Origin: OCS116 cluster bacterium AG-435-F03
GTDB lineage: Bacteria; Pseudomonadota; Alphaproteobacteria; MED-G09
Direction: 5' to 3'
DNA length: 64,000 nt
Assembly (NCBI GenBank): GCA_003212795.1
Contig: QCOV01000001.1
Span: 624,893-688,892 of the forward strand
Every line of letters starts with the position of its first letter. Within the stretch, counting starts at the first letter, position 1. The position numbers and the translations under genes are program-made. Below the pieces are notes generated by a model. It was not told the DNA's origin. It saw only the letters and a program-made list of their open reading frames with translations, and did not search any database. Of the stretch, positions 15,645-33,773 are shown piece by piece.

Positions 15645-15659
15645 TTTGTCCTCACAATA

Positions 15660-17684: not shown

Positions 17685-17773
17685 TTATCGCCAATTTTAT
17701 CTAATAATTTTAACATTATAAACATAAGACCTATAGCAACAACTAGTCCTAAAAACGCCATAAAAAAACCCAT
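17682..17773 (-). CDS. candidate 30-aa hydrophobic micro-protein (MGFFMAFLGLVVAIGLMFIMLKLLDKIGDK)
   Basis: Fills the gap between the Fe-ADH stop and the SDR start. AAGGAT SD sits 6 nt upstream of its ATG, and its stop overlaps the SDR start (gatAAATGA). A single predicted TM helix. Short AT-rich ORFs are easily spurious. Confidence 0.3.
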
Positions 17774-17776
17774 AAT

Positions 17777-18919: not shown

Positions 18920-19840
18920 TTATTTGTCAGATATAAAATCGGCTATTGCATCAAGTGCTTCATTAGCTTCAGGTAAAAAAGGTGCATAACCATGAAAAAC
19001 ATGCACCATATCATCCCAAACTTCTAACTTAACGTCACAACCAGATGACTCTGCGCTTTCAGCAACTTTTTTTGAATCATCTAATAAAACTTCTCTTCCC
19101 CCTACTTGGATAAGCAAGGGTGGAAAGCCTTCATAATTACCATAGACAGGTGATGCATATGGATTTATTAGATCAGATTCATCTTTGATATAAAGATCCC
19201 GAAATGCTGCTATTGCATCCTTTGAAATATATGGATCAATATCTGCATTAGTATCATAAGTTTCAGAAACAGGATCTAATTCTGCCCATGGAGATAAAGG
19301 TATTACAGCATTTGGAAGCTCAGAGTTATCATCCTTCAAAGCCAATGTAACCCCTAAGGATAAGCCTCCACCAGCCGAATCTCCGGATATATAAGATTTA
19401 GTACATTTTCCACTACCATTTGGTCCATTATTTAACATCCACAAAAAAGCTTTTTTAGAGTCATTTACTCCATGAGGAAATTTTAATTCTGGTGCTAGTG
19501 AATAATCTATTAAAAGTATAGAACATCCAGTTTTTTCGGCAATTTGGCTAGTAAGAGAGAGGTAACCTCTTATAGTTCCAATTGCATAACCACCACCATG
19601 TAAATATAAAATTCTTTTATCAGGATCTGAGTTCTCAGCCATAACCCATTGACCATAAATACCATCAACATTAACTGGAGAAGCGCTGCCAGTAGGCCTA
19701 ATACTACTATCAGCATTAAAATAATCATCAACAGTATATCTAAAGTGCTTCATCCCAAGTCTTTCATCATCTAATGAAAAGAAAGTTTTAACCAATTCTT
19801 CCTGATGTTTAATAACTAATTTATTTTGCTCTGAACTCAT
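18920..19840 (-). CDS. alpha/beta-hydrolase esterase/lipase, hormone-sensitive-lipase (HSL) family
   Basis: 306 aa with oxyanion-hole motif HGGGY and nucleophile elbow GDSAGG; Asp/His of the triad lie near the C-terminus. Confidence 0.88.
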   Translation of the reverse strand: MSSEQNKLVIKHQEELVKTFFSLDDERLGMKHFRYTVDDYFNADSSIRPTGSASPVNVDGIYGQWVMAENSDPDKRILYLHGGGYAIGTIRGYLSLTSQIAEKTGCSILLIDYSLAPELKFPHGVNDSKKAFLWMLNNGPNGSGKCTKSYISGDSAGGGLSLGVTLALKDDNSELPNAVIPLSPWAELDPVSETYDTNADIDPYISKDAIAAFRDLYIKDESDLINPYASPVYGNYEGFPPLLIQVGGREVLLDDSKKVAESAESSGCDVKLEVWDDMVHVFHGYAPFLPEANEALDAIADFISDK

Positions 19841-19856
19841 TTAAGCCCCCTTTAAT

Positions 19857-20588
19857 TTATAAACTCATACCACCATCTGATGTGATCATTTGTCCAGTTA
19901 TATAACTAGCTCCATCACTACATAAAAAACATGCGAGCTCTCCCATATCTTCAGGAGTACCCCATCTTCCTAATGGTATTCTTTTAAGTGAGTCATCATA
20001 TCTTTTCTTATTTTTAAAAGTAACCTCAGTTAATTTAGTTGCAACAAATCCTGGAGCGATACCGTTAACTCTTATATTGTTTTCAGCCCAGGCCTCTGCA
20101 AGGGTTTTAATCAAAGTGAGTAATCCACCCTTTGATGCAGAATATGCTGGATTACCTTTTACAGAATGATAGCTAGCTCCAGATCCAATAATTATTATTG
20201 ACCCATTACTTTTAGATAATTTATCTTGAAAAAAAGAACATGAGGCCATTATAGAATTTAAATTTAAATCAACCACTTTCTTAAATGTATCCATTTCAAA
20301 TTCTTTTCTTTTATATGCTACGATACCTTGAGAACAAATTAAGTGATCTAAGTCATTAAACGGTAAATCTAAATTATTTAGATTATCATGATTAGAAAGA
20401 TCCAGTTTTTGATAATTACACTTTTCTATATTTTGAGAAATTCTTTCTTCATAATCTTCAATTGAGTCTCTTGTACCTGTAATACAAACATTCGCATTAT
20501 ATTTGATAAAGCTTTCAGCAATTCCTCTTCCAATTCCACTACTGCCACCTATAACTAAGATGTTTTTATTATCAAAACCTTGAGACAT
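19857..20588 (-). CDS. SDR family oxidoreductase
   Basis: 243 aa with VIGGSSGIGRG and YSASKGG. Confidence 0.85.
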   Translation of the reverse strand: MSQGFDNKNILVIGGSSGIGRGIAESFIKYNANVCITGTRDSIEDYEERISQNIEKCNYQKLDLSNHDNLNNLDLPFNDLDHLICSQGIVAYKRKEFEMDTFKKVVDLNLNSIMASCSFFQDKLSKSNGSIIIIGSGASYHSVKGNPAYSASKGGLLTLIKTLAEAWAENNIRVNGIAPGFVATKLTEVTFKNKKRYDDSLKRIPLGRWGTPEDMGELACFLCSDGASYITGQMITSDGGMSL

Positions 20589-21367
20589 TATGCTGAGTAA
20601 CCACCATCAACAGGGATAGATTGACCGCTTATATAACCAGCATTTTCTGATGCGAGAAAAACTACAGTATCAAATAACTCTTCTGGAGCGCCTGCTCTTC
20701 CAAGCGGGACTTGCTGCATCCATTGATCCAATATTCCACCAGGTGGAGAATCGATTTCTTGAGATAACCCTACAGCAATTAATCCAACAGCAACGCAATT
20801 TGCCCTTATGCCGTTATGACCTTCCTCTCTTGAAATTGCTGTACATAAATGTTGAACACCAGACTTAGGAACAGAAGATAAACCATCTGTGCTTATATAT
20901 TTATGAATAGCGGCTGTAGTTAACGCCGTAATTGATCCTCCTCCTCCTTCTTTTAAGACAGGAACAACAGATCTTAAAACATGATAAAATCCCTTAATAT
21001 CAGTATCTAAAGTTTTATAAACATCTTCTGGATTAGCATCCAATATAGGCATTATGTGAAGAAAAGGACCTGTAGCAAAAACTACAGAATGAATTCTACC
21101 AAATTCTTTCTGACTAGATTTAACGAAGCTTTCAACTTTTGATGCGTCCAAAAGATCTACACTAGACGAAAATCCTTTTTGACCATTTTCCTCAATTTTT
21201 GAAATATTTTCTTTTGCAGCTTCCTCATTATTTAAATATGTAAAAGCTACATCAGTTCCACATTTACTAAGAAGATCAACAATTCCGGAACCTAATCCAC
21301 CTGAACCACCGAATACAATAGCTGCACCATCAGAAAATCTATATTTTGTCATACCCAATTCCTCCAT
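20588..21367 (-). CDS. SDR family oxidoreductase
   Basis: 259 aa with VFGGSGGLGSG. One-nt overlap with the downstream SDR. Confidence 0.8.
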   Translation of the reverse strand: MEELGMTKYRFSDGAAIVFGGSGGLGSGIVDLLSKCGTDVAFTYLNNEEAAKENISKIEENGQKGFSSSVDLLDASKVESFVKSSQKEFGRIHSVVFATGPFLHIMPILDANPEDVYKTLDTDIKGFYHVLRSVVPVLKEGGGGSITALTTAAIHKYISTDGLSSVPKSGVQHLCTAISREEGHNGIRANCVAVGLIAVGLSQEIDSPPGGILDQWMQQVPLGRAGAPEELFDTVVFLASENAGYISGQSIPVDGGYSA

Positions 21368-21519: not shown

Positions 21520-23127
21520 ATGACAAATAAAATTGATTGCGATGCTATTGTTGTTGGCGCTGGTTTTGCTGGACTAGCTTTAATTCATCACTTAAAAAAA
21601 ACAGGTATTTCTGTAAAAGTATTAGATAAAGCTTCTGAAATAGGAGGAACATGGGCATGGAATCGTTATCCAGGAGCAGCTACAGACAGTGAAGGATATT
21701 ACTATTGTTTGACCTTTTCCAAAGAAATTTTGCAAGAATGGACCTGGTCAGAGAGATATCCTGGTTGGGAAGAAACTAATAGATATCTTAATTTTGTAGC
21801 TGATAAATGTGATATGTGGCCTCATATTCAACTTGATACCGAAGTTATAAGTGCAGAATTCAATAAAGAGGATGGTTTATGGATTGTAAAGACCAAAAAT
21901 GATGAAGAGCTAGTTTGTAAATATTTTATAAGTGCTATGGGAATGATCTCTCAACCAGTTATTCCTAGTTTTGATGGAATAGAAAATTTTAATGGCCCAT
22001 GCTTTCATTCCTCAAGGTGGCCTCAAGAAGGTCTAGATTATGATGGAAAGAAAGTGGCTATTGTTGGGTGTGGTGCATCCACAGTACAAATGTTACCAAT
22101 AATGGCTCAGACAGCAGAAAATGTAACAGTTTTTCAGAGAACACCGAATTTTGTTCTACCCGCTATGCAGAAATCAATGACACCTGAATGGGAAAAAGAT
22201 ATCAAAGATAATTATGATGAAATAATCGATAAATGCAGGAACCATGTTTTTGGTATGGCTTTTGATAGCCCTGTAGGTCGTAATGCAGTTGATACGCCTG
22301 AAGACGAGAGAGAGAAAATATTTGAAGACAATTGGAATGGAAGTTTTAGATGGGTTTTTGAAACTTTTGATGATTTGTTAGTAGACCCTGCGGCAAATCA
22401 AATGGCGGCAGATTTTATTATAAAAAAAATGAAAGAAAAAATTAATGATCCTGAAATTGCAGAAATATTAACACCGAAAGGTTATCCTCTATTCGCCAAA
22501 AGACCACCATTAGATCATGGTTTTTATGAGGCATTTAATAGAGAGAATGTCCATCTTGTAGATATCAAAGACAGAGAGCCAATTTCAAAATTTACTGAAA
22601 AAGGAATTAATACAATAAAAAATGAATATGAATTTGATATCATAATTTTAGCTACAGGCTTTCAAGCGTATACAGGGGCTCTTGAAGCTTTTGATATTAT
22701 AGGTCAAAGCGGAAAATCTATTAGAGAAAAATGGGAGCTTGAGTCAAAATCAATTATGGGAGTATGTATTTCTGATTTCCCAAATTTATTTACAATAACA
22801 GGACCTCAAGCACCTTTTGCTAATCTTCCAACCTCTATAGAGCAAAATTGTTTATGGATTTCTGATTGCATAAATAAAATGGAAAAAGAAGGACACAAAA
22901 TTTGTCATCCTCTTTTAGAAGCAGAAGAAGAATGGTCAGCTCACGTTAAAGAAGTGCATGAACAAACTTTGATGAATGTTGGTGACAAAGTAAATTCTTG
23001 GATGATGGGAGCAAATATAGAAAATAGAAAATCCAGAGTATTAATTTATTTTGGAGGTGCTGGAGTATATTATGACAGATTAAGAGAGTCGGTTGATAAT
23101 GATTTTCCAGAACTGACATTTAGTTAA
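21520..23127 (+). CDS. Baeyer-Villiger monooxygenase (type I flavin monooxygenase, cyclohexanone-monooxygenase-like)
   Basis: 535 aa with FAD Rossmann motif VVGAGFAGL, the BVMO fingerprint FNGPCFHSSRWP (FxGxxxHxxxWP) and the NADPH Rossmann motif VGCGASTVQ. Confidence 0.9.
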   Translation: MTNKIDCDAIVVGAGFAGLALIHHLKKTGISVKVLDKASEIGGTWAWNRYPGAATDSEGYYYCLTFSKEILQEWTWSERYPGWEETNRYLNFVADKCDMWPHIQLDTEVISAEFNKEDGLWIVKTKNDEELVCKYFISAMGMISQPVIPSFDGIENFNGPCFHSSRWPQEGLDYDGKKVAIVGCGASTVQMLPIMAQTAENVTVFQRTPNFVLPAMQKSMTPEWEKDIKDNYDEIIDKCRNHVFGMAFDSPVGRNAVDTPEDEREKIFEDNWNGSFRWVFETFDDLLVDPAANQMAADFIIKKMKEKINDPEIAEILTPKGYPLFAKRPPLDHGFYEAFNRENVHLVDIKDREPISKFTEKGINTIKNEYEFDIIILATGFQAYTGALEAFDIIGQSGKSIREKWELESKSIMGVCISDFPNLFTITGPQAPFANLPTSIEQNCLWISDCINKMEKEGHKICHPLLEAEEEWSAHVKEVHEQTLMNVGDKVNSWMMGANIENRKSRVLIYFGGAGVYYDRLRESVDNDFPELTFS

Positions 23128-23134: not shown

Positions 23135-24163
23135 TTAATTAACTATCAAATTATTGGAAAAATTTTCATATGCCAGTATTAATGCTGCTTTAATTCCTGA
23201 CGCATCTTTAATTTTTTTATTGGCCTCTTCTGAGGCGGCGTTTCCTGCTTTTACTCTATTCTCTATTCCTTTAAGTATGCAGTAAAGTTTTGTTAACGAA
23301 AATAAACAATAAATATTAAGAAGCTCAATATTAACCATTTTTCCAAACGATTCTTCATAAGATTTAAGAAATTCTGAAGCTGATGGAAGGTCGTATGAAC
23401 TCCACTCCTCACCGATTCCATATAAAACTCCCTTAGGTATTAACCAATTAATCATTTGAAAACTGAGATCAACCTCTGGTTCACCAAAGGCAGATAACTC
23501 CCAATCTAACACGGCTAAACAATTTGAGTCGTCTCCTATAACTAAATTATCTAATTTATAATCCCCATGAATTAAGCATAAGTTGTTATTTTCAGGAGTA
23601 TTTTTGATAATAAAATCATAAATTCTTGAAATGTCTTTATCATGATTATCATCATTAAAAATTTGGCTATACCAGATATTCAAATTTCTTATCATAAAAC
23701 CAGTGTTTTTCTTAAAAGGTATATCTAATTTATCGATATTGTAACTATGTAATCTACCAAGAGTTTTTGCTAAACTTTTGTAAATTTTTCTTCTTTCTTG
23801 AGAATTGTTATTTGGAAGAAAGGGATCTTCATAAATATGACCATCAATATATTGCATGATATAAAAATCTCTACCTATTATTGATTTATCTTCACAAAGT
23901 ATTAGAGGTTTTGGAACGCTAAATTCATTTTTACTAAGACCGGATAACACATGAAATTCTCTATCTAATCTGTGAGCACCTCTAACAAGTTCTCCCTTTG
24001 GTTGAGTTCTTAAAATAAATTTATCACCATTTTCATCTAATAAAATATAAGTTGGATTAGATTGACCATTACCTATTTTTTTAGGTAATTGATTTAATAA
24101 ATTGAATTGATGTTTTTTCAAAAAACCGTCAATTTTTTGGAATTCTTCTTCATCGATAAGCAT
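23135..24163 (-). CDS. phosphotransferase-family kinase (APH/choline-kinase-like fold)
   Basis: 342 aa with catalytic loop HGDYKLDNLV and DWE. The N-terminal nucleotide-binding lobe resembles the APH-like proteins associated with acyl-CoA dehydrogenases. Confidence 0.75.
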   Translation of the reverse strand: MLIDEEEFQKIDGFLKKHQFNLLNQLPKKIGNGQSNPTYILLDENGDKFILRTQPKGELVRGAHRLDREFHVLSGLSKNEFSVPKPLILCEDKSIIGRDFYIMQYIDGHIYEDPFLPNNNSQERRKIYKSLAKTLGRLHSYNIDKLDIPFKKNTGFMIRNLNIWYSQIFNDDNHDKDISRIYDFIIKNTPENNNLCLIHGDYKLDNLVIGDDSNCLAVLDWELSAFGEPEVDLSFQMINWLIPKGVLYGIGEEWSSYDLPSASEFLKSYEESFGKMVNIELLNIYCLFSLTKLYCILKGIENRVKAGNAASEEANKKIKDASGIKAALILAYENFSNNLIVN

Positions 24164-24165: not shown

Positions 24166-24618
24166 TTAAGAGTTAAGTGATTTTTTATATTGTTCCTCAA
24201 TATTATCAAAAATTAAACTATATAAAGACTCTAGAAGCTCAACTATTTCAGCTTCTGTGGCACCATCAGCAACAAAATGACTGCACCAAGTAATATCTGT
24301 TTCATTTGATGTGATTTCTCTAAGATTTACGCAAGCAACATAATTCAACATAGGTAAACATGATTTATCCACTATAGAGTAAGTCAAAGATAACCCCTCC
24401 TCATAGCCATCAAGCCTTTCAATAACCTCACCAGGATAAGGGTCCCCTAAATAGACCGCTCTTACATCTCCAATGCTATCAGAGAAAGTATCTGGTAATT
24501 TTACTTCAAGAATATTTTCAGGAAGTAAGGTTTTTATCTCTCCAAAGGCTCTTAGTCTGTCCCAAAAATATTGTTTAGGAACATTAACAATTCTCTGAAC
24601 TTTAGCTTCATTTGGCAT
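24166..24618 (-). CDS. conserved hypothetical ~150-aa protein, paralog A (possibly SRPBCC/Bet v1-like ligand-binding fold)
   Basis: About 45% identical by eye to the 26980-27429 product; shared blocks KRIV.VPK.YFW.RLRAF, GEVIERLDG, IDKSCLP. The fold assignment is a guess. Confidence 0.6.
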   Translation of the reverse strand: MPNEAKVQRIVNVPKQYFWDRLRAFGEIKTLLPENILEVKLPDTFSDSIGDVRAVYLGDPYPGEVIERLDGYEEGLSLTYSIVDKSCLPMLNYVACVNLREITSNETDITWCSHFVADGATEAEIVELLESLYSLIFDNIEEQYKKSLNS

Positions 24619-24648
24619 GGGTTTCTCCTAAACTAATGCTAGTTATTA

Positions 24649-26877
24649 TCAAAATGTTTGAGTAATACTTATGCCCCATGTTCTAGGCTTTCTTGCCATC
24701 CCATATGTCCATGCTGCACCAGCAAAAACATCATAACCAACAGTAAATCCATCCTCTTCAGTTATATTCTTAGCAAAGAAAGCAAAAACTGTATTATTAA
24801 ACTCATAATTCATTGATAAATCTATTAATGTTTGTTCTTTGTTGAATGTTGTTGGAGAGTTTAGCTGAGAAGTATGATGTTCACCAATATGGTGAGCGCT
24901 TGCTCTTACATAGGCTAAACCTGGACCAGCTTCCCATTCATAAGTTAAACCAAGTGTCCAAGTTAAATCTGGGGCTCTTAGAGGTTCTAAATATGTAAAA
25001 TCAGCAGGTGTTCCACTTCCTGTAAAATCAGCAAAAAATTCATCATAACTTGCATCTAAATAACCAACATTTAGGTCAACTGAAAAATTTTGATTTATAA
25101 TTGCATAAAGCTCTAACTCAATACCTTTAAATGAAGCCTCAGCAACATTATCAGTCACAGTAGCTCTTCCTATAGCGGCAAGTGTATCAGGAATATCAAC
25201 ATCCAGTTGCTTATCTTCATACTCCATGTCAAAAATTGCTAAATTAAATCTTAGTCTGTTATCAAGAAGAGTAGATTTAAGGCCAGCTTCTATATTGGTT
25301 ACAGTTTCTGGTTTATATGGCCTAACAGCACTAAATTCATTTCCCCATCTACCATTAAATCCACCACTTCGATAACCTTGAGAGTAACTTAAATAGTATA
25401 ATAAATCATCATTAGCTTGATAGCTAACAGCTACTTTTGGTGTAAATTTAGTCCAATTTTTATCAGCATAAGTATTTATAGCGCTACAATCTGGATATGG
25501 TCCAGGGCCCTGACAAGCATTACTACTTTTTTCTTCATCAATATATCTTCCGCCAACAGTGAGGGTGATTTGTTCATTTATGTCATAATCAGCCTCAAAA
25601 AATACAGCAATACTATCGGTTTCTTGATGCGTATAATTATAAATAGGAACAACTATCAAAGGGTCTTGGGTTGGCACAGCGCCAAATAAATCAAAAAATC
25701 CAATTCTACTTTCCATTGGTATTGTGTATTCGGAGTCCCATTTATAAAGTCCTACAACATAATTTAATGGGCCTTCTAAATCACTAGTAAGTCTAATTTC
25801 ATGACTTGTTTGTTCATACTCAGCATTACGGTCAGTATGATACAGTGTTAGGGGTGTTCCATCCCAATCTTGATCTACCTCTTCATCAGTAGTTTTTCTT
25901 CCCAAAATATAATCTAATTTGTATTTATCAGATAATTGCCATCTTACTTCAAGAATACCTGTAAAACTCTCAAATGAAGCATCTCGTCTTTTTGGTTCGT
26001 TATTGTATACTTTGTAACGATCACCACTTTGAGGAATTCCTAATCCAGGTGAACATTGACCATAAACTGCACACCACCATGTGGTTGATCCGCCAAGATT
26101 TAATGCTGTGTGAGCATCTTGATCTTGCTGCTCATCTGTTAAAGTTAATTCAATTTCTACATTGTCATTAACTGTAAATAGAGAATTAAAGGTAATTTGA
26201 GTGTATTCTTCTCTTCCAAGATCTTTGTTATCTACCAAATTAGTTAAATAGCCTTCAGCTTGCTCTCTATGTGTTCCAGTTATCTTAAAGGCTGCATTAG
26301 GAGTTCCAAAGTTTAGTATACCATCTACGATAGTTGTATCGTAATCGCCATAACCAACTTTGAGTTTTCCTCCAACTTCACCAGTAGGTTTTGTTCTCGT
26401 TAAATTTATTACGCCAGCAACAGTATTTCTTCCAAACAATGTTCCTTGTGGACCTCTTAATATTTCAACACTTTCTAAATCAATAGTTTTAAGCATTGCG
26501 CCAGAATTTGCTCCAACAAATACACCGTCTAAAACAACCCCTGTTGTTGGATCAAAATTTTTCTCCACATCTGAAACACCCACACCTCTGATGAATATTG
26601 CTGTTGGACTTCCTGGTCCCTGTTGAAGATCATCAATTATTAAATTTGGAGACTCACCTGCCAAATCTCTTATATCAGAAGGAAACCTATTCTCAATATC
26701 TCTTGCGCTTAAAGCGCTTACAGAAAGAGCTGTTTCTTGAATGTTCTCTTCCTTTTTACGTGCAGTAACAACAATTTCTTCTATACCTTCAGAGCTTTGA
26801 GCGAAAGATATTGAAGTATATATTGCAGATACAAATATAAAACATGAAATAGCAAAAAAGTTAAAAATAGATCTCAT
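24649..26877 (-). CDS. TonB-dependent outer-membrane receptor
   Basis: Signal peptide MRSIFNFFAISCFIFVSAIYTSISFA, TonB box EEIVVTARK, plug domain, long beta-barrel region and C-terminal Phe. The track ORF begins at a TTG 19 codons upstream; an ATG at 26877 preceded by a G-rich SD is more plausible. Confidence 0.88.
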   Translation of the reverse strand: MRSIFNFFAISCFIFVSAIYTSISFAQSSEGIEEIVVTARKKEENIQETALSVSALSARDIENRFPSDIRDLAGESPNLIIDDLQQGPGSPTAIFIRGVGVSDVEKNFDPTTGVVLDGVFVGANSGAMLKTIDLESVEILRGPQGTLFGRNTVAGVINLTRTKPTGEVGGKLKVGYGDYDTTIVDGILNFGTPNAAFKITGTHREQAEGYLTNLVDNKDLGREEYTQITFNSLFTVNDNVEIELTLTDEQQDQDAHTALNLGGSTTWWCAVYGQCSPGLGIPQSGDRYKVYNNEPKRRDASFESFTGILEVRWQLSDKYKLDYILGRKTTDEEVDQDWDGTPLTLYHTDRNAEYEQTSHEIRLTSDLEGPLNYVVGLYKWDSEYTIPMESRIGFFDLFGAVPTQDPLIVVPIYNYTHQETDSIAVFFEADYDINEQITLTVGGRYIDEEKSSNACQGPGPYPDCSAINTYADKNWTKFTPKVAVSYQANDDLLYYLSYSQGYRSGGFNGRWGNEFSAVRPYKPETVTNIEAGLKSTLLDNRLRFNLAIFDMEYEDKQLDVDIPDTLAAIGRATVTDNVAEASFKGIELELYAIINQNFSVDLNVGYLDASYDEFFADFTGSGTPADFTYLEPLRAPDLTWTLGLTYEWEAGPGLAYVRASAHHIGEHHTSQLNSPTTFNKEQTLIDLSMNYEFNNTVFAFFAKNITEEDGFTVGYDVFAGAAWTYGMARKPRTWGISITQTF

Positions 26878-26979
26878 AATTACCCCCCCAATTGATTTAA
26901 ATATTATGATAGTTGAATAAATGTTTTTTTTCAATAAATTAACAAATTAATGATTTAAATTTTAAGTTAATTAAATATC

Positions 26980-27429
26980 TTAATTACCATCAGAAAATTG
27001 TTTTTCCATGTTGTCACAAATAAGATTATAATTAAACTTAAACATGCTGACTGTTTCTTCTTTATCCTTGTCTTTAGCTTTAAAGTGACCATACCAATCA
27101 ACTTCTGTAAAATCTTGATTTGTGTTTTTAATGCTTACCGTCGAAACATAATTTTCAACAGGTAAACATGATTTATCAATAACGGAATAAGTCATGTATT
27201 TTTCTTCAATCAATCCGTCTAACCTTTCTATAACTTCACCTTGGTAAACTTTTTCAAGATAAACATACCTTACATCACCTGGTGAATTAGAAAAATTATC
27301 TGGAATTTTTACTTCTTTAATCGTTCTAGGTAGAAGCGTTTGAATTTTATCGAAAGCCCTTAATCGCTTCCAAAAATATAATTTTGGTACTTTTACTATT
27401 CTTTTAACATGCGACTGTAAAAATAACAT
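26980..27429 (-). CDS. conserved hypothetical ~150-aa protein, paralog B
   Basis: Paralog of the 24166-24618 product; see that entry. Confidence 0.6.
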   Translation of the reverse strand: MLFLQSHVKRIVKVPKLYFWKRLRAFDKIQTLLPRTIKEVKIPDNFSNSPGDVRYVYLEKVYQGEVIERLDGLIEEKYMTYSVIDKSCLPVENYVSTVSIKNTNQDFTEVDWYGHFKAKDKDKEETVSMFKFNYNLICDNMEKQFSDGN

Positions 27430-27915: not shown

Positions 27916-29175
27916 TTATCTAATAATAACTGGAAGGTGAGAAAAACCTTTTACAAAGCTCGATCTGATTCTAATTGGTTCACCAACAACTTCTATGTTT
28001 TCAAATCTTTTCATTATTTCTTCCCACAGAATTTCTAACTGCATATCAGCTAATCTATTTCCTACACATCTATGAATTCCAAAACCATATGATAAATGGC
28101 TTCTTGGTCTTTTCCTATCAATTATAAAGCTGTTTGGGTTTTCAATTACATCTTCATCTCTGTTTCCTGACACATACCACATTACTACTTTGTCACCTTT
28201 TCTAATTAGTTTTCCTCCCAATTCATAATCTTCAAGAGCAGTTCTTCTCATGTAAGCCAGTGGTGTTTGCCATCTAATGATTTCAGGAACCATAGTTTTA
28301 ATTAAAGAATGATCTTTTCTTAATTTATCATATTGATCAGGATTTTGATTTAAGACCAAAATGCCTCCTGTCATAGAATTTCTTGTTGTATCATTACCTC
28401 CAACTATAAGTAGAATTAAATTACCTAGATACTCCATTGGATCCATATCACGTGTGCTAGGGTTGTGAGCCAGCATAGAAATTAAGTCAGTTTTAGGTTC
28501 AGAGTTAACTCTTTCATTCCATAGTTTAGTAAAATATTGAAGACATTCAAATAACTCTTCTTTTCTTTGCTCTTCTGTTTCAACTATTCCATCGCCAGGT
28601 CTAGCAGTAGAAACATCTGACCATCTTGTTAATTTCATTCTATCTTCAAAAGGAAAATCAAATAAAGTAGCTAGCATTCTTGTTGTTAATTCAATGGAGA
28701 CATCCTCTACCCAATTAAATTCTTTATTTATTGGAAGGTTATCTAAAACCTCGGCTGTTCTCTCTCTAATAAGGTCTTCCATATTAGCAAGATTACTGGG
28801 AGCAACTACAGGATTAACAGCTTTTCTTTGTATATCATGCTTAGGTGGGTCCATCGCAATAAACATAGGTGTAGTGAAATCTTCTTGAGGATCAAATAAA
28901 GTTATAGCTCCTTCTGATGAAAAAACTTTATGATTGGTATCCACACTCATTATATCTTTGTATTTAGTAATTGACCAATAAGGCCCTACATCCTCAACAC
29001 ATGATTCAGCACAATAATGAACTGGGTCCTCTTTTCTTAATCTTTCAAATAATGGAAAAATTGCATCTCCATACATAAAGATGTCAGAGTTTGCCATATC
29101 AATTTTTTCTATGGGTATTGAATAAGGATCCATTTCTGGACTCCAAACATCTGGACGAAGAAGTTCTTTAAGCAT
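27916..29175 (-). CDS. cytochrome P450, CYP153-like (alkane/alkyl hydroxylase family)
   Basis: 419 aa with heme loop FGFGIHRCVGNRLADMQLEILWEE and the N-terminal region EDPVHYCAES...GPYWSITKYKDIMSVDTNHKVFSSE, both matching CYP153 signatures as I remember them. The 3' end overlaps the upstream gene by 8 nt. Confidence 0.8.
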   Translation of the reverse strand: MLKELLRPDVWSPEMDPYSIPIEKIDMANSDIFMYGDAIFPLFERLRKEDPVHYCAESCVEDVGPYWSITKYKDIMSVDTNHKVFSSEGAITLFDPQEDFTTPMFIAMDPPKHDIQRKAVNPVVAPSNLANMEDLIRERTAEVLDNLPINKEFNWVEDVSIELTTRMLATLFDFPFEDRMKLTRWSDVSTARPGDGIVETEEQRKEELFECLQYFTKLWNERVNSEPKTDLISMLAHNPSTRDMDPMEYLGNLILLIVGGNDTTRNSMTGGILVLNQNPDQYDKLRKDHSLIKTMVPEIIRWQTPLAYMRRTALEDYELGGKLIRKGDKVVMWYVSGNRDEDVIENPNSFIIDRKRPRSHLSYGFGIHRCVGNRLADMQLEILWEEIMKRFENIEVVGEPIRIRSSFVKGFSHLPVIIR

Positions 29176-31480
29176 TATTTATAATCCCCCATACTTTTTG
29201 TGCTGTAATTGGCATATTTAGTTTCTTTGTATCAAAACCCTCTAAAGCATTTATGATTGCATTTACATAAGCAGTTGTTGAGGCAACAGTTCCAGCTTCA
29301 CCACAACCTTTAGCTCCCAATAAATTTGTTTTACACTCTGCCTCTTCATTAAAATCAATATTAAAATCAGGAAAATCATCAGCTCTTGGCATTTGATAAT
29401 CCATATAAGAACCATTTAAAAGTTGGCCAGTTTCCTCTTCATATATAGCATGTTCACACATTGCTTGACCTAAACCCTGAACGATACCTCCATGAACTTG
29501 GCCCGCAACTAAAAGAGGATTAATAATTTTTCCAAAATCGTCTGTCGCATGATAATCTATGATATCTATATTTCCTGTATCTTTATCTACCTCTACCTCA
29601 CAAATGTGGCAACCATTTGGATATGTCGGATCTTTATGTTCGTATGAACTAGCACCATCAAGCATTTGAGTATTAGATTGATTTTCTGCAATTTTAGCTA
29701 TTGAAAATAAGTCAATATTTCTGTTAGTGCCTTGTACTTGAAAAAGAGGACCAGATTCAGTTGAATACTCTATTTCGTCTATAGAAGCCTCTAATTCTGC
29801 AGCAGCAATTTCAATTCCCTTTTTCAAAACATCATCTGATGCCTCATTAATGGCACCAGCAGCAAAATACAACGATTTTGATCCACCAGTTCCACCTCCG
29901 CTTGGCAAGTCTTCACTATCACCAAAATGAATAGATACATCTTCAGGGTTAACACCTAATTTTTCAACAACAATTTGTGTCCATGCAGTCTCATGGCCTT
30001 GGCCTGTAGCCATTGTGCCGGTGTAAACATTTACCTTACCCTCACTTGAAACAATTATTCTAGAGTCTTCAGAGCCCTCTCCTTGAGTTCTCTCAACATA
30101 ATATGATACACCGATACCGCGAAGTTTATTTTCATCTATAGATTTTTTTTGTCTTTTTTCGAAATCTTCAAAAGATGAATTTAGCAGTGTCATGTTAGTA
30201 GTTTTATTAAAATCACAACTATCAAAAGGAATAACCGGGTCTGCAGTATTTCCTAAATCAGAAGGTTGAACATAATTCAATTTTCTAATTTCTATTTGTC
30301 CAAGAGACATATCGCGGGCTGCTTGATCAACCAATCTCTCAATAACATAACTTGCTTCAGGTCTACCCGCTCCTCTATAAGCATCAATAGGAACAGTATT
30401 TGTATATACAACTTTTACATTATTAACCATTACAGGAATATTATATACTCCAACATGCATTCCCGCAGCTGCAAGAGTAGGAATAAAAATACCATATTGG
30501 GATAAATAAGCTCCTACAGAAGCTGTTGTCTCCACCTTTACACCAAGAAATTTTCCTTCTTTATCTAAAGCTAAATATGCATCGGTGACATGGTCTCTAC
30601 CTTGTGCATCACTTAAAAAAGACTCTGATCTTGTTGCAGTCCATTTAACAGGTCTTGATAAAATTTTACTAGCATGCATTACAGCTATATATTCAGGAAA
30701 ACACATCATTTTTAAGCCAAATCCACCGCCTACATCTTTTGTAATAACTTGAATATCTTCTTCTTTAATATTAAGCGTATTAGCAAGCCTTTCTCTCATA
30801 GCATGAGGGCCTTGGCTTTCAACATGCATTTTAAATTTTCCATCAGTTTTATTAAATATTGATACTGCAGATCTTGGTTCGATAGGATTAACGACAATCC
30901 TATTATTAATAAGATGAACATGAGAAACATGATGTGCATCTGACTCAACTTTTTTCCATTCCTCATCCGAACCTAAACCCCAATCAACTGCACAATTAGA
31001 CTCAAATTCATCAAATAACTTAGGTGAGTCATTTTCAAGAGCTTTGGCGGTGTCAGAGTTACATGGTAACTCTTCATAATCCACTATTACATTATCAGCA
31101 GCATCGAGAGCTAAATTAACAGTTTCAGCTAGTATGAAAACAACAGGATCTCCGACATGTCTTACCCTATCTGACGCCAATATAGGTCTTTTACTAGCAT
31201 TCATAGGTGATCCATCTTTATTTTGGAGAAAATCAATTACCGACATATGTGTTATACCTGCCTCAGTGAAGGAATCATTTGTAAAAATATCAATTACACC
31301 TGGCATTTTACGAGCACTCTCAACATCAATGTTTAAAATTTTTGCATGAGAATAAGGTGATCTAACAAAAACACCATGGCACATATCTTCAAATTTTATA
31401 TCATCCGTATAATTACCTTCTCCTGTAATTAAACGCGTATCTTCAATCCTAGTAACAGGCTGTCCTACAGCAAACTTCAT
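29168..31480 (-). CDS. xanthine dehydrogenase/aldehyde oxidase/CoxL-family molybdopterin-binding large subunit
   Basis: 770 aa. N-terminus MKFAVGQPVTRIEDTRLITGEGNYTDDI...HGVFVRSPYSHAKI is characteristic of Mo-hydroxylase large subunits, and the Mo-cofactor-binding domains are present throughout. Confidence 0.88.
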   Translation of the reverse strand: MKFAVGQPVTRIEDTRLITGEGNYTDDIKFEDMCHGVFVRSPYSHAKILNIDVESARKMPGVIDIFTNDSFTEAGITHMSVIDFLQNKDGSPMNASKRPILASDRVRHVGDPVVFILAETVNLALDAADNVIVDYEELPCNSDTAKALENDSPKLFDEFESNCAVDWGLGSDEEWKKVESDAHHVSHVHLINNRIVVNPIEPRSAVSIFNKTDGKFKMHVESQGPHAMRERLANTLNIKEEDIQVITKDVGGGFGLKMMCFPEYIAVMHASKILSRPVKWTATRSESFLSDAQGRDHVTDAYLALDKEGKFLGVKVETTASVGAYLSQYGIFIPTLAAAGMHVGVYNIPVMVNNVKVVYTNTVPIDAYRGAGRPEASYVIERLVDQAARDMSLGQIEIRKLNYVQPSDLGNTADPVIPFDSCDFNKTTNMTLLNSSFEDFEKRQKKSIDENKLRGIGVSYYVERTQGEGSEDSRIIVSSEGKVNVYTGTMATGQGHETAWTQIVVEKLGVNPEDVSIHFGDSEDLPSGGGTGGSKSLYFAAGAINEASDDVLKKGIEIAAAELEASIDEIEYSTESGPLFQVQGTNRNIDLFSIAKIAENQSNTQMLDGASSYEHKDPTYPNGCHICEVEVDKDTGNIDIIDYHATDDFGKIINPLLVAGQVHGGIVQGLGQAMCEHAIYEEETGQLLNGSYMDYQMPRADDFPDFNIDFNEEAECKTNLLGAKGCGEAGTVASTTAYVNAIINALEGFDTKKLNMPITAQKVWGIINNA

Positions 31481-31492
31481 TATTTCTCCTAT

Positions 31493-32248
31493 TTAATTTT
31501 TATAACTGGGGTCAATTTTATCTAATTTCCTTAAAAGACCAGGCCACGCAAGTTGGCCTATTCCATCATCAGATGCCATTTGACCTTGTTCAGTAACTAA
31601 TTCAATAACATCAGTTGGAACTTGATTAAGTTTTAAACCACCAGTTAAGGCTTTAATTTGCATGGTGCAGGCTCTTTCAAGAAAAAATAAACGAAGCCAT
31701 GCATCTCCACAAGTAGCACCTGTTGTTAACAAACCATGATTTTTTAAAATTAAACAATGCTTATCCCCAAGATCATTAATCAATCTCTCTCTTTCATCTA
31801 AATTAAGAGCGATACCTTCATAATCATGATATGCACAATCATTTCTTATAACCATTGCATGTTGACTTATAGGCATAAGACCATCTTCTTGTGCCGCAAC
31901 AGCCACTCCATCATTTGAATGCGTATGAATTACAGCATGATTATTTGTTCCTGAGGAATGAACTGCTGAATGAATAGTGAAACCAGCAGCATTAACATTA
32001 TAATTTGTTTCAGAAACCTTATTTCCATCAAGATCAATTTTGACCAGATCAGATGCACAAATTTCGTCAAATAATAAACCATATGGATTAAGTAAGAAGT
32101 GTTCAGGTTCTGAGGGAACACGAACAGATATATGGGTAAAAACAAGATCATCCCAACCATATAAAGCTACTAACCTATATAAAGCTGCAAGCTCTACTCT
32201 TGCGCTCCATTCCTCTTCACTTACTGATTCTCTAATTTGTTTATTCAT
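31493..32248 (-). CDS. class II aldolase/adducin-domain protein
   Basis: 251 aa with metal-binding His cluster (HTHSNDGVAVAAQ...HAMVIRND). Size and pattern fit the FucA/AraD fold. Confidence 0.65.
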   Translation of the reverse strand: MNKQIRESVSEEEWSARVELAALYRLVALYGWDDLVFTHISVRVPSEPEHFLLNPYGLLFDEICASDLVKIDLDGNKVSETNYNVNAAGFTIHSAVHSSGTNNHAVIHTHSNDGVAVAAQEDGLMPISQHAMVIRNDCAYHDYEGIALNLDERERLINDLGDKHCLILKNHGLLTTGATCGDAWLRLFFLERACTMQIKALTGGLKLNQVPTDVIELVTEQGQMASDDGIGQLAWPGLLRKLDKIDPSYKN

Positions 32249-32295
32249 AATCCAATATTACAATCTTTATAAATATAAAACCAGCATTATTAGAA

Positions 32296-33771
32296 TTAGA
32301 CATTGATGATTTTATTTATTGCTTTATTCCAATTTTTTATTATTTCTTCTCTTGTTTGATTTTCCATTTGTGGCAGAAATTCCTTATTTTTATATAAATT
32401 AACATTAAATTCTTTTAAATCATTAATTTCTTGAGAGCCAAGAGCTGATAATGAAGCCGCGCCCAATGCAGTCGCTTCTTGTTCATTTGATTTACTTATT
32501 TTTATGTCACAAATATCAGAGAGATTCTGCATAAACCAGTCATTTTCTGTCATACCTCCATCAACTCTGATACTATTAAGGGGGTTCTCAAATAATTTTT
32601 TAGTATCCTCATTTATGGCATTCATAAGATCATACGTTTGTAAAGAAATAGACTGAACTGATGAGGCTATTATCTCATTTTTGTTGGAATCACGCGTTAA
32701 ACCTGAAATAGTTGCCCGACTATTTGGTTGCCAATGTGGTGCACCTAAACCAGTAAAAGCAGGTACCATTACAATCTCACTATTAATGGAAGTATTTTTA
32801 AGTATATCTTCTAATTCATTAATATTATCAAATACTTGTAGATTATTCTTTAACCAATCTATAATAGCACCAGCCATGAAAATAGAACCCTCAAGAGCAT
32901 AAGCTATCTCTCCATTAATTTTATATGCTACGGTCGATAAAAGGCCATTTTTAGAATATGCAATATTTTTACCTGTATTTAATAAAACAAAGCATCCAGT
33001 ACCATAAGTTGACTTAATATCTCCAAAATTAAAGCATTTTTGTCCAATTGCAGCTGATTGTTGATCTCCTATAACACCATAAATTGGTAATTTCTTTATG
33101 AGAGCCTCTGATTGTCCATAAAAAGCATCAGATTCCAGAACTTCCGGAAGTATTGATTTATTCACTTGAAAAAGATTCAATAAATCATCATCCCATTTTA
33201 ATTCTTCAATATTAAAAAGATTTGTTCTAGCTGCATTTGTAATATCAGTAGCAAAAACTTTACCTTTTGTAAGATGCCAAATAATCCATGAATCTATTGT
33301 TCCTGCACATACTCTATCTTGATTTATGCTTTCTTTAACGCCATCAACATTATTTATTATCCAGGATATCTTAGTTGATGAAAAATACGGGTCTAATAAT
33401 AATCCTGTTTTATTGATAATTAATTCTTCGTAGCCTTTTTCTTTTAAATCTCTACATAAACTCTCTGTTCTTCTGTCTTGCCATACTATTGCGTTATATA
33501 AAGATTTACCGGTTTGTTTATCCCATACAACTACAGTTTCTCTTTGATTAGTAATACCAATTGAACAAATATTATGATTAGGATTATTTTCTATAATTTC
33601 ATTACAACAACTTATAACAGTTCCAATAATCTCTTCGGGATTATGCTCAACCCAACCATTATTAGGGAATACTTGTTCAAAAGATTTCTGACTAGAATCA
33701 ACTTTTTTTCCGTTTAAGTCAAAAAGCATTACTTTTGTAGATGTGGTACCTTGGTCAATTATAAGAAACAT
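32296..33771 (-). CDS. glpK: glycerol kinase (FGGY family)
   Basis: 491 aa colinear with GlpK over its whole length (IIDQGTTSTKVMLFD, GITNQRETVVVWDKQTGKSLYNAIVWQDRRT, TYGTGCF, PAFTGLGAPHW, VDGGMT). Confidence 0.88.
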   Translation of the reverse strand: MFLIIDQGTTSTKVMLFDLNGKKVDSSQKSFEQVFPNNGWVEHNPEEIIGTVISCCNEIIENNPNHNICSIGITNQRETVVVWDKQTGKSLYNAIVWQDRRTESLCRDLKEKGYEELIINKTGLLLDPYFSSTKISWIINNVDGVKESINQDRVCAGTIDSWIIWHLTKGKVFATDITNAARTNLFNIEELKWDDDLLNLFQVNKSILPEVLESDAFYGQSEALIKKLPIYGVIGDQQSAAIGQKCFNFGDIKSTYGTGCFVLLNTGKNIAYSKNGLLSTVAYKINGEIAYALEGSIFMAGAIIDWLKNNLQVFDNINELEDILKNTSINSEIVMVPAFTGLGAPHWQPNSRATISGLTRDSNKNEIIASSVQSISLQTYDLMNAINEDTKKLFENPLNSIRVDGGMTENDWFMQNLSDICDIKISKSNEQEATALGAASLSALGSQEINDLKEFNVNLYKNKEFLPQMENQTREEIIKNWNKAINKIINV

Positions 33772-33773
33772 TT

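What the first reader, a model, noticed from the sequence alone, without database searches (positions are those of the whole stretch)
24166..27429. Paralogous ~150-aa proteins bracketing the TonB-dependent receptor
Two genes of unknown function (150 and 149 aa, about 45% identical, shared blocks GEVIERLDG and IDKSCLP) sit immediately upstream and downstream of the TBDR gene in the same operon. The symmetric arrangement suggests small ligand-binding carrier proteins working with the receptor, for example periplasmic or outer-membrane-associated binders of a hydrophobic substrate. Neither has an obvious signal peptide, which makes the arrangement more puzzling.
Basis: seen in the sequence. Interest (0 to 1): 0.55.

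Follow-up and report, generated by a model that had tools for sequence, protein, structure and literature searches.

The report
Cytoplasmic lipid-binding paralogs flanking TonB receptor
The two small genes on either side of the outer-membrane receptor are real paralogs with the Bet v1/START-type ligand-binding fold, but they are cytoplasmic parts of a lipid or hydrocarbon oxidation gene cluster of marine PS1-clade bacteria, not receptor accessories in the periplasm.

Summary
Two ORFs of 150 aa (A, 24166-24618) and 149 aa (B, 26980-27429) flank a TonB-dependent receptor (TBDR) gene on the minus strand. They are 52% identical (E 7e-54) and both are under purifying selection.

Both are predicted with high confidence (pLDDT 92-93) as helix-grip SRPBCC proteins. 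Their closest structures are the plant PYR/PYL abscisic-acid receptors and the uncharacterised bacterial proteins XoxI and YPO0625. Neither has room for a signal peptide, so they are cytoplasmic.

They belong to a narrow marine family (PS1 clade, OCS116, SAR86). In PS1 and OCS116 it sits in one CYP153-BVMO-esterase-SDR-lipid-kinase cluster; SAR86 carries a reduced TBDR-monooxygenase-SDR-esterase module. The family has positional subtypes. A-type follows the TBDR in 12 of 18 species-level genomes with a resolvable context, including SAR86. B-type follows a flavin reductase. C-type immediately precedes an ACAD10/LvaA-type lipid kinase.

The TBDR is dispensable. Close relatives carry B and A in tandem with no receptor between them, and other lineages have no receptor in the cluster.

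Best reading, inferred and untested: they are cytoplasmic carriers for a hydrophobic, oxygenated substrate or its intermediates, handing them to the soluble oxidising enzymes. An enzymatic role cannot be excluded. This is a new subfamily of a known fold, of moderate interest.

The parts
24166..24618 (-). srpA: 150-aa SRPBCC (PYL/XoxI-like) protein, acidic (pI 4.4), 'A-type', immediately downstream of the TBDR and 2 nt upstream of the kinase gene
26980..27429 (-). srpB: 149-aa SRPBCC paralog, near-neutral to basic (pI 7.7), 'B-type', 5 nt downstream of the flavin reductase gene
   Evidence: ORF; 52% identical to A; no Pfam hit on its own; AF2 pLDDT 92.3 with the same fold; PYL, XoxI and YPO0625 as top Foldseek hits; clade B, PS1-specific sister of clade A; dN/dS 0.05-0.17
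24649..26877 (-). TonB-dependent receptor, 742 aa from the ATG at 26877. The ORF list extends it to a TTG at 26934, which is probably not the start. Plug plus 22-strand barrel domains; signal peptide MRSIFNFFAISCFIFVSAIYTSISFA/QS
   Evidence: Pfam Plug and TonB_dep_Rec_b-barrel; orthologs are 742-747 aa; sequence; no close solved relative; present or absent among close relatives
23135..24163 (-). APH-family kinase of the ACAD10/ACAD11/LvaA type (lipid-hydroxyl kinase). Its start is 2 nt after the srpA stop
   Evidence: Pfam APH; phmmer to the ACAD11 kinase domain 8v3v at E 1.5e-47 and to 3dxp at 5.7e-46; HGDYK and DWE motifs visible in the translation, compared with PMC13596139
27435..27911 (-). 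HpaC/StyB-type NAD(P)H:flavin reductase, immediately upstream of srpB
   Evidence: Pfam Flavin_Reduct; NCBIfam and PDB hits
27916..29175 (-). CYP153-family cytochrome P450 (alkane/alkyl omega-hydroxylase type)
   Evidence: phmmer E 2.9e-182 to 7ant and 5e-178 to CYP153A7 3rwl
21520..23127 (+). Type I Baeyer-Villiger monooxygenase, the only cluster gene here on the + strand
   Evidence: E about 1e-131 to 1e-120 against phenylacetone, cyclohexanone and steroid monooxygenases
18920..21367 (-). SDR1, SDR2 and an HSL-family esterase. With the srp gene and the TBDR this is the module shared with SAR86 (SDR1 74-77% identical across classes)
   Evidence: Pfam; NCBIfam; synteny
13723..18919 (.). Rest of the cluster, distal part: SDR (+), NMO/FabK-like, Rieske oxygenase alpha subunit, SDR3, Fe-ADH
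   Evidence: Pfam; conserved synteny in PS1 and OCS116 loci
29168..34940 (-). Rest of the cluster, proximal part: Mo-cofactor CoxL/glyceraldehyde-dehydrogenase-like large subunit, class II aldolase, glycerol kinase GlpK, second P450
   Evidence: Pfam; NCBIfam, with GlpK above its cut-off

Best explanation
A and B are cytoplasmic, PYL/Bet v1-like (SRPBCC) small-molecule-binding proteins. They arose by a duplication inside the PS1 clade of marine Alphaproteobacteria. They are dedicated parts of a catabolic cluster for a hydrophobic, oxygen-bearing aliphatic compound. That cluster encodes CYP153 hydroxylase, Baeyer-Villiger monooxygenase, esterase, several SDR and Fe alcohol dehydrogenases, a Mo-dependent aldehyde-type oxidoreductase and an ACAD10/LvaA-type lipid kinase.

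Proposed mechanism (inferred). The TBDR brings the scarce hydrophobic substrate across the outer membrane. No inner-membrane transporter is encoded in the cluster, so the substrate would partition into the inner membrane. The SRPBCC proteins would take it, or its poorly soluble alcohol, ketone or ester intermediates, into their cavity. A conserved Arg-Glu-Tyr polar patch on the cavity floor would hold the oxygen function. The proteins would then present the ligand to the soluble enzymes.

The paralogs have diverged in net charge and in cavity-lining positions, and each subtype keeps a fixed gene neighbour: A after the TBDR, B after the flavin reductase/CYP153 unit, C before the kinase. This suggests they serve different steps or partners.

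Shown: fold, paralogy, cytoplasmic location, cluster membership, the recurrent TBDR-A adjacency, and TBDR dispensability. Inferred: ligand binding, the hand-over role and the nature of the substrate.

For: Sequence: a family profile hits XoxI (4e-12), YPO0625 (6.5e-10) and PYL1 (1.4e-4), sharing W, F, G-x-x-R, ERLD and NY positions.

Cavity: positions equivalent to PYR1 pocket residues are mostly hydrophobic or aromatic (V55, L57, Y61, Y80, I82, L88, M90, Y93). The carboxylate-binding Lys of PYR1 is replaced by an invariant Leu-Pro. R53, E67 and Y93 match the R-E-Y triad conserved in PYLs and in onion LFS, where E88 and Y114 hydrogen-bond small alcohols (10.1101/142687).

Location: no signal peptide.

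Context: every PS1/OCS116 family member with a resolvable neighbourhood lies in the same CYP153-BVMO-SDR-esterase(-kinase) cluster; the three gammaproteobacterial loci carry the reduced TBDR-LLM-srp-SDR-SDR-esterase module. CYP153 identity is, BVMO, and the kinase (ACAD11/3dxp type). Relatives of that kinase phosphorylate 4-hydroxyacyl-CoA and 1-O-alkylglycerols (PMC12440821, PMC13596139). No inner-membrane transporter or regulator is present in the window cluster.

Subtype-specific neighbours and clades. Charge split: A and the gamma clade have pI 4.3-4.7, B mostly 5.8-8.6. Clade-fixed differences at pocket-equivalent positions are N35/T, P62/Q, M90/V, A95/S and C112/Y.

Precedent for an SRPBCC protein that takes a lipid from the membrane to a soluble enzyme: CoxG with menaquinone and Mo-CODH (PMC12202499).
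Against: No ligand, cavity volume or partner contact was measured.

CYP153 and BVMO systems characterised elsewhere work without such a protein (my own knowledge). The substrate of the cluster is unknown.
Confidence: 0.5

Rival explanations
1. A and B are enzymes of the pathway: an isomerase, lyase, dehydratase or hydrolase-like activity on an oxygenated lipid intermediate. They would use the Arg53-Glu67-Tyr93 triad and/or the invariant Asp84-Ser86-Cys87 loop, as in the SRPBCC enzymes lachrymatory-factor synthase, Bet v1-type hydroxynitrile lyase or norcoclaurine synthase. One option is elimination of the phosphate that the adjacent ACAD10/LvaA-type kinase would add, since no ACAD (LvaC-type) partner is encoded nearby.
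Against: The same R-E-Y triad is conserved in the non-catalytic PYL receptors. Most invariant residues are shared with XoxI, YPO0625 and PYL, and so look like fold or framework residues. Two or three diverged copies per cluster with changes at pocket-equivalent positions fit binders of different ligands better than one catalytic step. SAR86 and some PS1 clusters carry the protein without any kinase.
Confidence: 0.25
2. They are ligand sensors or regulatory subunits in the manner of PYR/PYL receptors. On binding the substrate they would bind and switch a partner protein, for example the adjacent lipid kinase, the flavin reductase/CYP153 pair, or each other as an acidic-basic A:B heterodimer.
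For: The closest characterised structural relatives are receptors that work by ligand-induced partner binding. The cluster has no transcriptional regulator. Each subtype has a fixed neighbour, and A and B have opposite net charge.
Against: The PYL gate (SGLPA) and latch (HRL) sequences and the ligand-anchoring Lys are not conserved. No PP2C-like partner is present. No interaction evidence exists, and the idea is not testable with the tools available here.
Confidence: 0.12
3. One reading: they are periplasmic or outer-membrane-associated carriers that deliver substrate to, or receive it from, the TBDR.
For: The A-type immediately follows the TBDR in most lineages, and this holds across two bacterial classes.
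Against: No signal peptide, lipobox or N-terminal extension occurs in any family member. Strand 1 begins at residue 2-3. The longer calls P0132 and P0071 look like mis-called starts in the upstream flank: AT-rich intergenic DNA for P0132 and the 3' end of the flavin reductase gene for P0071. The TBDR is absent from close relatives that keep both paralogs, and from all clusters that have only the C-type.
Confidence: 0.03

Closest known systems
XoxI (PDB 3cnw, Bacillus cereus), Q6HG14 (3f08) and YPO0625 (7tmu, Yersinia pestis): bacterial PF10604 SRPBCC proteins of unknown function
   Different: Only 21-24% identical. They lack the invariant Cys of the DKSCLP loop. No function or gene-context link to TBDR, CYP153 or BVMO is known for them.
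PYR/PYL/RCAR abscisic-acid receptors (plants)
   Same: Top Foldseek hits for both A and B (E about 1e-11, TM 0.8). They share the W, F, G-x-x-R, ERLD and NY framework and the R-E-Y triad. They are cytoplasmic binders of a small oxygenated terpenoid-type ligand.
   Different: 15-25% identity. The PYR1 Lys59 carboxylate anchor is replaced by an invariant Leu-Pro. The gate and latch loop sequences differ. The N- and C-terminal extensions are absent. There is no PP2C partner, and the context is bacterial and catabolic.
CoxG (SRPBCC quinone carrier of aerobic Mo-CO dehydrogenase; PMC12202499)
   Same: A bacterial SRPBCC protein encoded in an oxidoreductase cluster that holds a hydrophobic molecule in its cavity and serves a soluble enzyme. 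It is the best mechanistic precedent for a membrane-to-enzyme hand-over. A CoxL-like Mo subunit gene lies three genes upstream of B.
Onion lachrymatory-factor synthase and other Bet v1-fold enzymes (HNL, NCS, polyketide ARO/CYC)
   Different: There is no sequence similarity beyond the framework. The contexts are plant or polyketide, and the substrates are unrelated.
TBDR-linked catabolic loci for hydrophobic or aromatic compounds (for example sphingomonad TBDRs for lignin-derived or PAH substrates; TBDRs induced on alkanes in Thalassolituus, PMC6304351)
   Same: A TBDR gene embedded among oxygenase genes for a poorly soluble carbon source.
   Different: I found no description of a conserved cytoplasmic SRPBCC partner in such loci. 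The full-text search for 'SRPBCC' plus 'TonB-dependent' gave four papers, of which three were listed and none was relevant. The 2026 review of bacterial START proteins does not contain the words TonB, P450 or alkane.

Membership tests
SRPBCC superfamily / Pfam PF10604 (Polyketide_cyc2) | Helix-grip fold: beta-alpha-alpha-beta6-long C-terminal alpha | tested here: met
SRPBCC superfamily / Pfam PF10604 (Polyketide_cyc2) | Score above the Pfam gathering threshold | tested here: inconclusive
   A scores 29.4 bits against a cut-off of 27.4, so it passes. B has no hit at E <= 0.1. The SAR86 homolog scores 23.7 bits, below the cut-off. A family profile nevertheless hits the PF10604-type structures XoxI, YPO0625 and PYL1.
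SRPBCC superfamily / Pfam PF10604 (Polyketide_cyc2) | Internal hydrophobic ligand cavity | not testable with these tools
   Model coordinates could not be read. The only evidence is homology mapping of PYR1 pocket positions onto mostly hydrophobic or aromatic residues.
PYR/PYL/RCAR abscisic-acid receptors | Conserved framework and R-E-Y triad (ERLD...NY) | tested here: met
   HMM alignment to CsPYL1 and the mapping. The triad is described in 10.1101/142687.
PYR/PYL/RCAR abscisic-acid receptors | Lys that anchors the ABA carboxylate (PYR1 K59), gate SGLPA and latch HRL loops | tested here: not met
   The K59 equivalent is an invariant L32-P33. The gate region is GDPYPG in A and EKVYQG in B. The latch region is DKSCLP. 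The PYR1 sequence and residue list are from memory.
PYR/PYL/RCAR abscisic-acid receptors | Ligand-dependent binding of a clade-A PP2C phosphatase | tested here: not met
   No PP2C-like gene was found among the 48 window ORFs scanned, namely the cluster and the region downstream of it to about 55 kb. The binding itself is not testable here.
CoxG (PF06240) quinone carriers of Mo-CODH | PF06240 match, C-terminal membrane anchor, co-location with coxSML | tested here: not met
Periplasmic or surface substrate-binding partners of TBDRs (hemophore, SusD or lipocalin-like) | Export signal (Sec/Tat signal peptide or lipobox) | tested here: not met
   Strand 1 starts at residue 2-3. The N-terminal hydrophobicity maximum is 0.49 (A) and 0.77 (B), against 2.55 for the TBDR. 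The same N-termini are seen across the family.
Polyketide aromatase/cyclase (TcmN/ZhuI/WhiE ARO/CYC) | Type II PKS gene context and ARO/CYC catalytic residues | tested here: not met
   There are no PKS genes in the window. Identity to the ARO/CYC structures is only 5-10%.
The narrow marine 'TBDR/CYP153-cluster SRPBCC' family defined in this analysis | DKSCLP loop with invariant Cys, GEVIERL motif, about 148 aa, location in the CYP153-BVMO-SDR-esterase cluster of PS1, OCS116 or SAR86 | tested here: met
   Invariant columns. 243 proteins in the 5.8-billion-protein search. Only 7 of 1.84 billion 50%-identity cluster representatives at E < 1e-30. Synteny.

The most novel reading that the evidence does not exclude
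The three positional subtypes form a relay of cytoplasmic START-like lipid chaperones. The acidic A-type is tied to the TBDR, the near-neutral to basic B-type to the flavin reductase/CYP153 unit, and the C-type to the ACAD10/LvaA-type lipid kinase. The relay would pull a TBDR-imported hydrophobic substrate out of the inner membrane and pass it, step by step, to soluble oxygenases and a lipid kinase. This would be protein-mediated channelling of an insoluble substrate that replaces an inner-membrane transporter. The module is shared by horizontal transfer between two abundant ocean bacterioplankton lineages (PS1 and SAR86), and could be part of how oligotrophs consume trace marine lipids or hydrocarbons.
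Probability: 0.2. Interest if true: 0.65.

Novelty: new member of a known kind. Interest (0 to 1): 0.4.

Why it matters
PS1 and SAR86 are abundant, largely uncultured ocean bacteria. How they take up and process scarce hydrophobic carbon (algal lipids, cyanobacterial alkanes, long-chain ketones or ether lipids) is poorly known.

This locus links four things in one unit: a specific outer-membrane receptor, a CYP153/Baeyer-Villiger/esterase oxidation route, an ACAD10-type lipid kinase, and a private family of Bet v1-like binding proteins. The core of that unit has moved between bacterial classes.

If the small proteins are substrate carriers, they would explain how an insoluble substrate reaches soluble oxygenases without an inner-membrane transporter. 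They would also be useful additives for CYP153 and BVMO biocatalysis. If they are enzymes, they would mark an undescribed step in lipid catabolism. In either case they give a compact, testable handle (two proteins of about 150 aa) on the substrate specificity of the cluster.

Tried and rejected
1. Foldseek against afdb50 was not available on the machine, so there are no annotated AlphaFold-database neighbours.
2. Model coordinates are not exposed to scripts, so no cavity volume or electrostatics could be computed. I fell back on homology mapping to PYR1.
3. Rfam (gathering thresholds) over 20-36 kb gave no hits, and the terminator scan gave nothing on the minus strand between the genes. A promoter-like hexamer pair lies upstream of the TBDR (26934-26906). 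Such sites are no more frequent here than in shuffled sequence, so I gave it no weight.
4. Literature searches on 'PS1 clade' + TonB/P450, SRPBCC + TonB-dependent, CYP153 + Baeyer-Villiger + TonB, and 'PS1 clade' + alkane found nothing describing this locus or family.
5. Contexts of more distant relatives are on very short contigs or unrelated. P0142 sits next to an aldehyde dehydrogenase, P0143 next to SnoaL-like genes, and L033 next to aminotransferases and a luciferase-like monooxygenase. None has a TBDR.
6. I looked for the P. putida LvaB analogy, a small protein reported to act with the LvaA kinase (my memory of Rand et al. 2017). The paper is not held and the ACAD10/11 papers do not mention LvaB. 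It remains an unverified lead.
7. NCBIfam gave no name for A or B.
8. CoxG membership was considered because of the nearby CoxL-like gene, and rejected (see the membership test).
9. I rejected the idea that the TBDR was recently inserted between a tandem pair. In the family tree the TBDR-less A sequences (L008, L016, L017) are nested inside TBDR-linked A sequences, and the SAR86 outgroup is TBDR-linked. Loss of the TBDR is therefore the more parsimonious event.
Full report
**1. Observation**

A 150-aa ORF (A) lies at 24166..24618 and a 149-aa ORF (B) at 26980..27429, both on the minus strand. Between them is a gene with Plug and TonB-dependent-receptor barrel domains (TBDR).

- BLASTP of A against B gives 52% identity over 141 residues with no gaps, E 7e-54. 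Global identity is 50%.
- GEVIERLDG is present in both. The second block is V/IDKSCLP.
- The genes are packed like an operon. The gaps are 5 nt (flavin reductase to B), about 100 nt (B to TBDR), 30 nt (TBDR to A) and 2 nt (A to the next gene). No terminator-like site lies on that strand.
- The listed TTG start of the TBDR is probably wrong. Orthologs are 742-747 aa, and the ATG at 26877 gives a typical signal peptide.
- Both small genes evolve under purifying selection (dN/dS 0.03-0.17 against five orthologs each).

**2. Fold and location**

- A passes the Pfam gathering threshold for PF10604 (Polyketide_cyc2, SRPBCC). B does not hit on its own.
- AlphaFold2 on a 34-sequence family alignment gives confident models: A has pLDDT 93.1 and B 92.3, both with pTM 0.86. 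Both show the helix-grip order beta-alpha-alpha-beta6-alpha.
- Foldseek against the PDB puts PYR/PYL abscisic-acid receptors, XoxI (3cnw), 3f08 and YPO0625 (7tmu) on top for both models (E about 1e-11, TM about 0.8).
- A family profile hits XoxI (4e-12), YPO0625 (6.5e-10) and PYL1 (1.4e-4) by sequence.
IERLD corresponds to TERLD of PYLs, and the ...LP..NY block occupies the position of the PYL 'latch'.
- R53, E67 and Y93 correspond to the R-E-Y triad that is conserved in PYLs and catalytic in onion lachrymatory-factor synthase. There E88 and Y114 also hydrogen-bond small alcohols (10.1101/142687).
- The Lys that anchors the abscisic-acid carboxylate is replaced by an invariant Leu-Pro. Positions equivalent to the PYR1 pocket are mostly hydrophobic or aromatic. 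The PYR1 sequence and pocket list there are from my memory.
- In both models strand 1 starts at residue 2-3, and N-terminal hydrophobicity is far below that of the TBDR signal peptide. The proteins are therefore cytoplasmic.

**3. Organism and family size**

- The best genome match (99% for A) is a 'Rhodobiaceae bacterium' MAG. Other matches are single-cell genomes labelled 'PS1 clade'. The window is therefore from a PS1-clade marine alphaproteobacterium with about 32% G+C.
- The family is small. There are 243 proteins in 5.8 billion. Only 7 of 1.84 billion cluster representatives score E < 1e-30, after which scores fall to generic SRPBCC levels.
- No source gives the family a functional name; the few that name it call it a 'hypothetical protein'. 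NCBIfam has no model for it.

**4. Gene context**

The window cluster runs from about 13.7 to 35 kb. In order it contains:

- a P450, glycerol kinase GlpK, a class II aldolase and a CoxL/glyceraldehyde-dehydrogenase-like Mo subunit;
- a CYP153-family P450 (E 1e-182 to solved CYP153s) and an HpaC-type flavin reductase;
- B, the TBDR and A;
- an APH-family kinase;
- a type I Baeyer-Villiger monooxygenase (BVMO) on the opposite strand;
- two SDRs, an HSL-type esterase, an Fe-ADH, another SDR, a Rieske oxygenase, an NMO-like protein and a further SDR.

The kinase is of the ACAD10/ACAD11/LvaA type (E 1.5e-47 to 8v3v) and has the HxDxK and DWE motifs. Such kinases phosphorylate 4-hydroxyacyl-CoAs (PMC12440821, PMC11342911). 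They also phosphorylate 1-O-alkylglycerols, and this includes prokaryotic homologs (PMC13596139).

The enzyme set fits oxidation of a long aliphatic compound through alcohol, ketone, ester and acid stages. The exact substrate is unknown. No inner-membrane transporter, regulator, ferredoxin or ferredoxin reductase is encoded here, and the rest of the window that was scanned is housekeeping.

**5. Is the TBDR association recurrent?**

I mapped the cluster genes onto 36 related loci by tblastn and built a tree of the family. Four clades match four fixed positions:

| Clade | Position | Notes |
|---|---|---|
| A (PS1) | 25-100 nt after the TBDR stop | |
| Gammaproteobacteria, including SAR86 | TBDR - luciferase-like monooxygenase - srp - SDR1 - SDR2 - esterase | TBDR 67-68% and SDR1 74-77% identical to the PS1 genes, which points to horizontal transfer of this module |
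| B | always right after the flavin reductase | PS1-specific sister of A |
| C | always immediately before the kinase, sometimes overlapping its start | in clusters with or without a TBDR |

Among the 19 species-level genomes holding a family member, 12 have the TBDR next to it (within one gene in the three gammaproteobacterial genomes). Six have no adjacent TBDR: L016, L017, L018, L031, L032 and the distant L033. In one, L029, the upstream side is cut off. That gives 12 of 18 with a resolvable context.

The bracket B-TBDR-A recurs in the window, L014, L021, the MAG split over L026 and L019, and L034-36. B and A orthologs in these are only 65-69% identical in the most distant case, so the arrangement is old.

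The bracket is not obligatory. In L008-10 and L016-18 the flanking genes are 86-98% identical to the window, yet B and A sit 21 nt apart with no TBDR. These TBDR-less A sequences are nested within TBDR-linked ones, so loss of the receptor is the parsimonious reading.

A and the kinase are the most divergent genes between the window and those loci: 73-77% identical, against about 84-100% for the other cluster genes. L014 shows the opposite mosaic, with A 99% and TBDR 96% but B 82% and flavin reductase 81%. Recombination therefore shuffles this central segment.

More distant SRPBCC relatives sit in unrelated contexts without TBDRs.

**6. Differences between the paralogs**

- The A and gamma clades are strongly acidic (pI 4.3-4.7, net charge -8 to -14).
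- The B clade is mostly neutral to basic. Window B has pI 7.7.
- The C clade is near neutral.
- Clade-fixed substitutions fall at pocket-equivalent positions (N35/T, P62/Q, M90/V, A95/S, C112/Y) and on the C-terminal helix (L129/F, S131/F, L132/N, F137/C).
- This is sub-functionalisation, not redundancy.

**7. Interpretation**

Shown: A and B are cytoplasmic PYL/Bet v1-like proteins. They are paralogs from a PS1-specific duplication. They are integral to a CYP153/BVMO/esterase/lipid-kinase cluster, and the A-type is genetically coupled to a specific TBDR across two bacterial classes.

Inferred, as the best explanation (confidence about 0.5): they bind the hydrophobic substrate or its oxygenated intermediates after TBDR import and membrane partitioning, and present them to the soluble enzymes. 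Each subtype would serve a different partner. The precedent is CoxG, an SRPBCC protein that binds menaquinone and serves Mo-CO dehydrogenase (PMC12202499).

Rivals:

- An enzymatic role, about 0.25. It is supported by the invariant polar residues and Cys, the LFS-like triad, and a kinase that lacks its usual phosphate-eliminating ACAD partner.
- A PYL-like sensor or regulatory subunit, about 0.12.
It is contradicted by the absence of any export signal and by the dispensability of the TBDR.

**8. Comparison with known systems and novelty**

The proteins are members of the SRPBCC superfamily. The fold test is met and the Pfam threshold is met by A only. They fail the defining tests for PYL receptors (ligand Lys, gate and latch, PP2C partner). 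They also fail those for CoxG (family model, anchor, coxSML context), for ARO/CYC cyclases (PKS context) and for exported TBDR partners (signal peptide).

I found no description of a conserved cytoplasmic SRPBCC gene coupled to a TBDR or to CYP153/BVMO clusters. The 2026 review of bacterial START proteins does not contain the words TonB, P450 or alkane.

I therefore file this as a new, narrowly distributed subfamily of a known fold with an undescribed but consistent gene context. It is moderately interesting, mainly because it offers a handle on lipid or hydrocarbon use by abundant uncultured marine bacteria.

Noticed in passing
window 24649-26934 compared with L008-L010 and L016-L018 (about 10447-10469): The TBDR gene is present or absent among closely related PS1 genomes. 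In the TBDR-less genomes srpB and srpA are 21 nt apart. The genes around the indel (srpA 73-75%, kinase 76-77%) are much more diverged than the other cluster genes (about 84-100%). L014 shows the reverse mosaic, with A 99% and TBDR 96% but B 82% and flavin reductase 81%. This indicates recombination hot-spots inside the cluster.
   Followed up: partly
L027 6512-12945, L028, L030 (SAR86/Gammaproteobacteria) compared with window 18920-26877: A TBDR - luciferase-like monooxygenase - SRPBCC - SDR - SDR - esterase module in SAR86-type genomes has unusually high identity to the alphaproteobacterial PS1 genes (TBDR 67-68%, SDR1 74-77%). This suggests inter-class horizontal transfer.
   Followed up: partly
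window 27435-29175: The CYP153-family P450 has no ferredoxin or ferredoxin reductase gene in the scanned part of the window. It is followed instead by an HpaC/StyB-type flavin reductase, whose usual partner, a two-component flavin monooxygenase, is absent here. Related loci L005 and L006 carry a luciferase-like monooxygenase just upstream of the CYP153 gene. The electron supply for this P450 is unexplained.
   Followed up: no
window 29168-31480: A 770-aa Mo-cofactor large subunit (CoxL/glyceraldehyde-dehydrogenase-alpha-like, below all NCBIfam cut-offs) has no adjacent small (2Fe-2S) or medium (FAD) subunit genes. Its 3' end overlaps the CYP153 start by 8 nt.
   Followed up: no
window 23135-24163: An ACAD10/ACAD11/LvaA-type lipid kinase (HGDYK and DWE motifs) stands alone without an acyl-CoA-dehydrogenase-like partner. 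In PS1 and OCS116 clusters it is almost always preceded, with overlapping or nearly overlapping stop and start, by an SRPBCC gene (A- or C-type).
   Followed up: partly
window 24166-24618 and 26980-27429; family-wide: There is a systematic charge split between the paralog clades. A-type and SAR86-type proteins have pI 4.3-4.7. B-type proteins are mostly pI 5.8-8.6 (one at 4.8). This could reflect an A:B complex or different partners or surfaces.
   Followed up: no
window 26877-26934: The mechanical ORF call starts the TBDR at a TTG 19 codons upstream of the likely true ATG (26877). That ATG is preceded by a GGGGG ribosome-binding site and gives a canonical signal peptide and the ortholog length of 742 aa.
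   Followed up: yes
window 35796-36587: A 263-aa ORF has no Pfam match. It is conserved at the same position (263-264 aa, also without Pfam hits) in L008-L010, between the NAD kinase gene and a family III CoA-transferase gene.
   Followed up: no
window 32296-33771: A bona fide glycerol kinase (GlpK, above the NCBIfam equivalog cut-off) is a conserved member of the cluster in PS1 and OCS116, next to a class II aldolase. Together with the esterase and the alkylglycerol-kinase-like enzyme, this hints at a glycerol-containing lipid (ester or ether) as substrate.
   Followed up: no
window 1-13500: The catabolic cluster is embedded in core genome. The ORF layout and tRNA genes (a 1359-aa ORF, several small ORFs, tRNA-Trp, a 401-aa ORF, then tRNA-Gly, tRNA-Tyr and tRNA-Thr) look like the rpoB - ribosomal protein - nusG/secE - tuf region. 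These ORFs were not scanned against any family library. Downstream are tRNA synthetase and purine biosynthesis genes. The cluster is not on an obvious mobile island.
   Followed up: no
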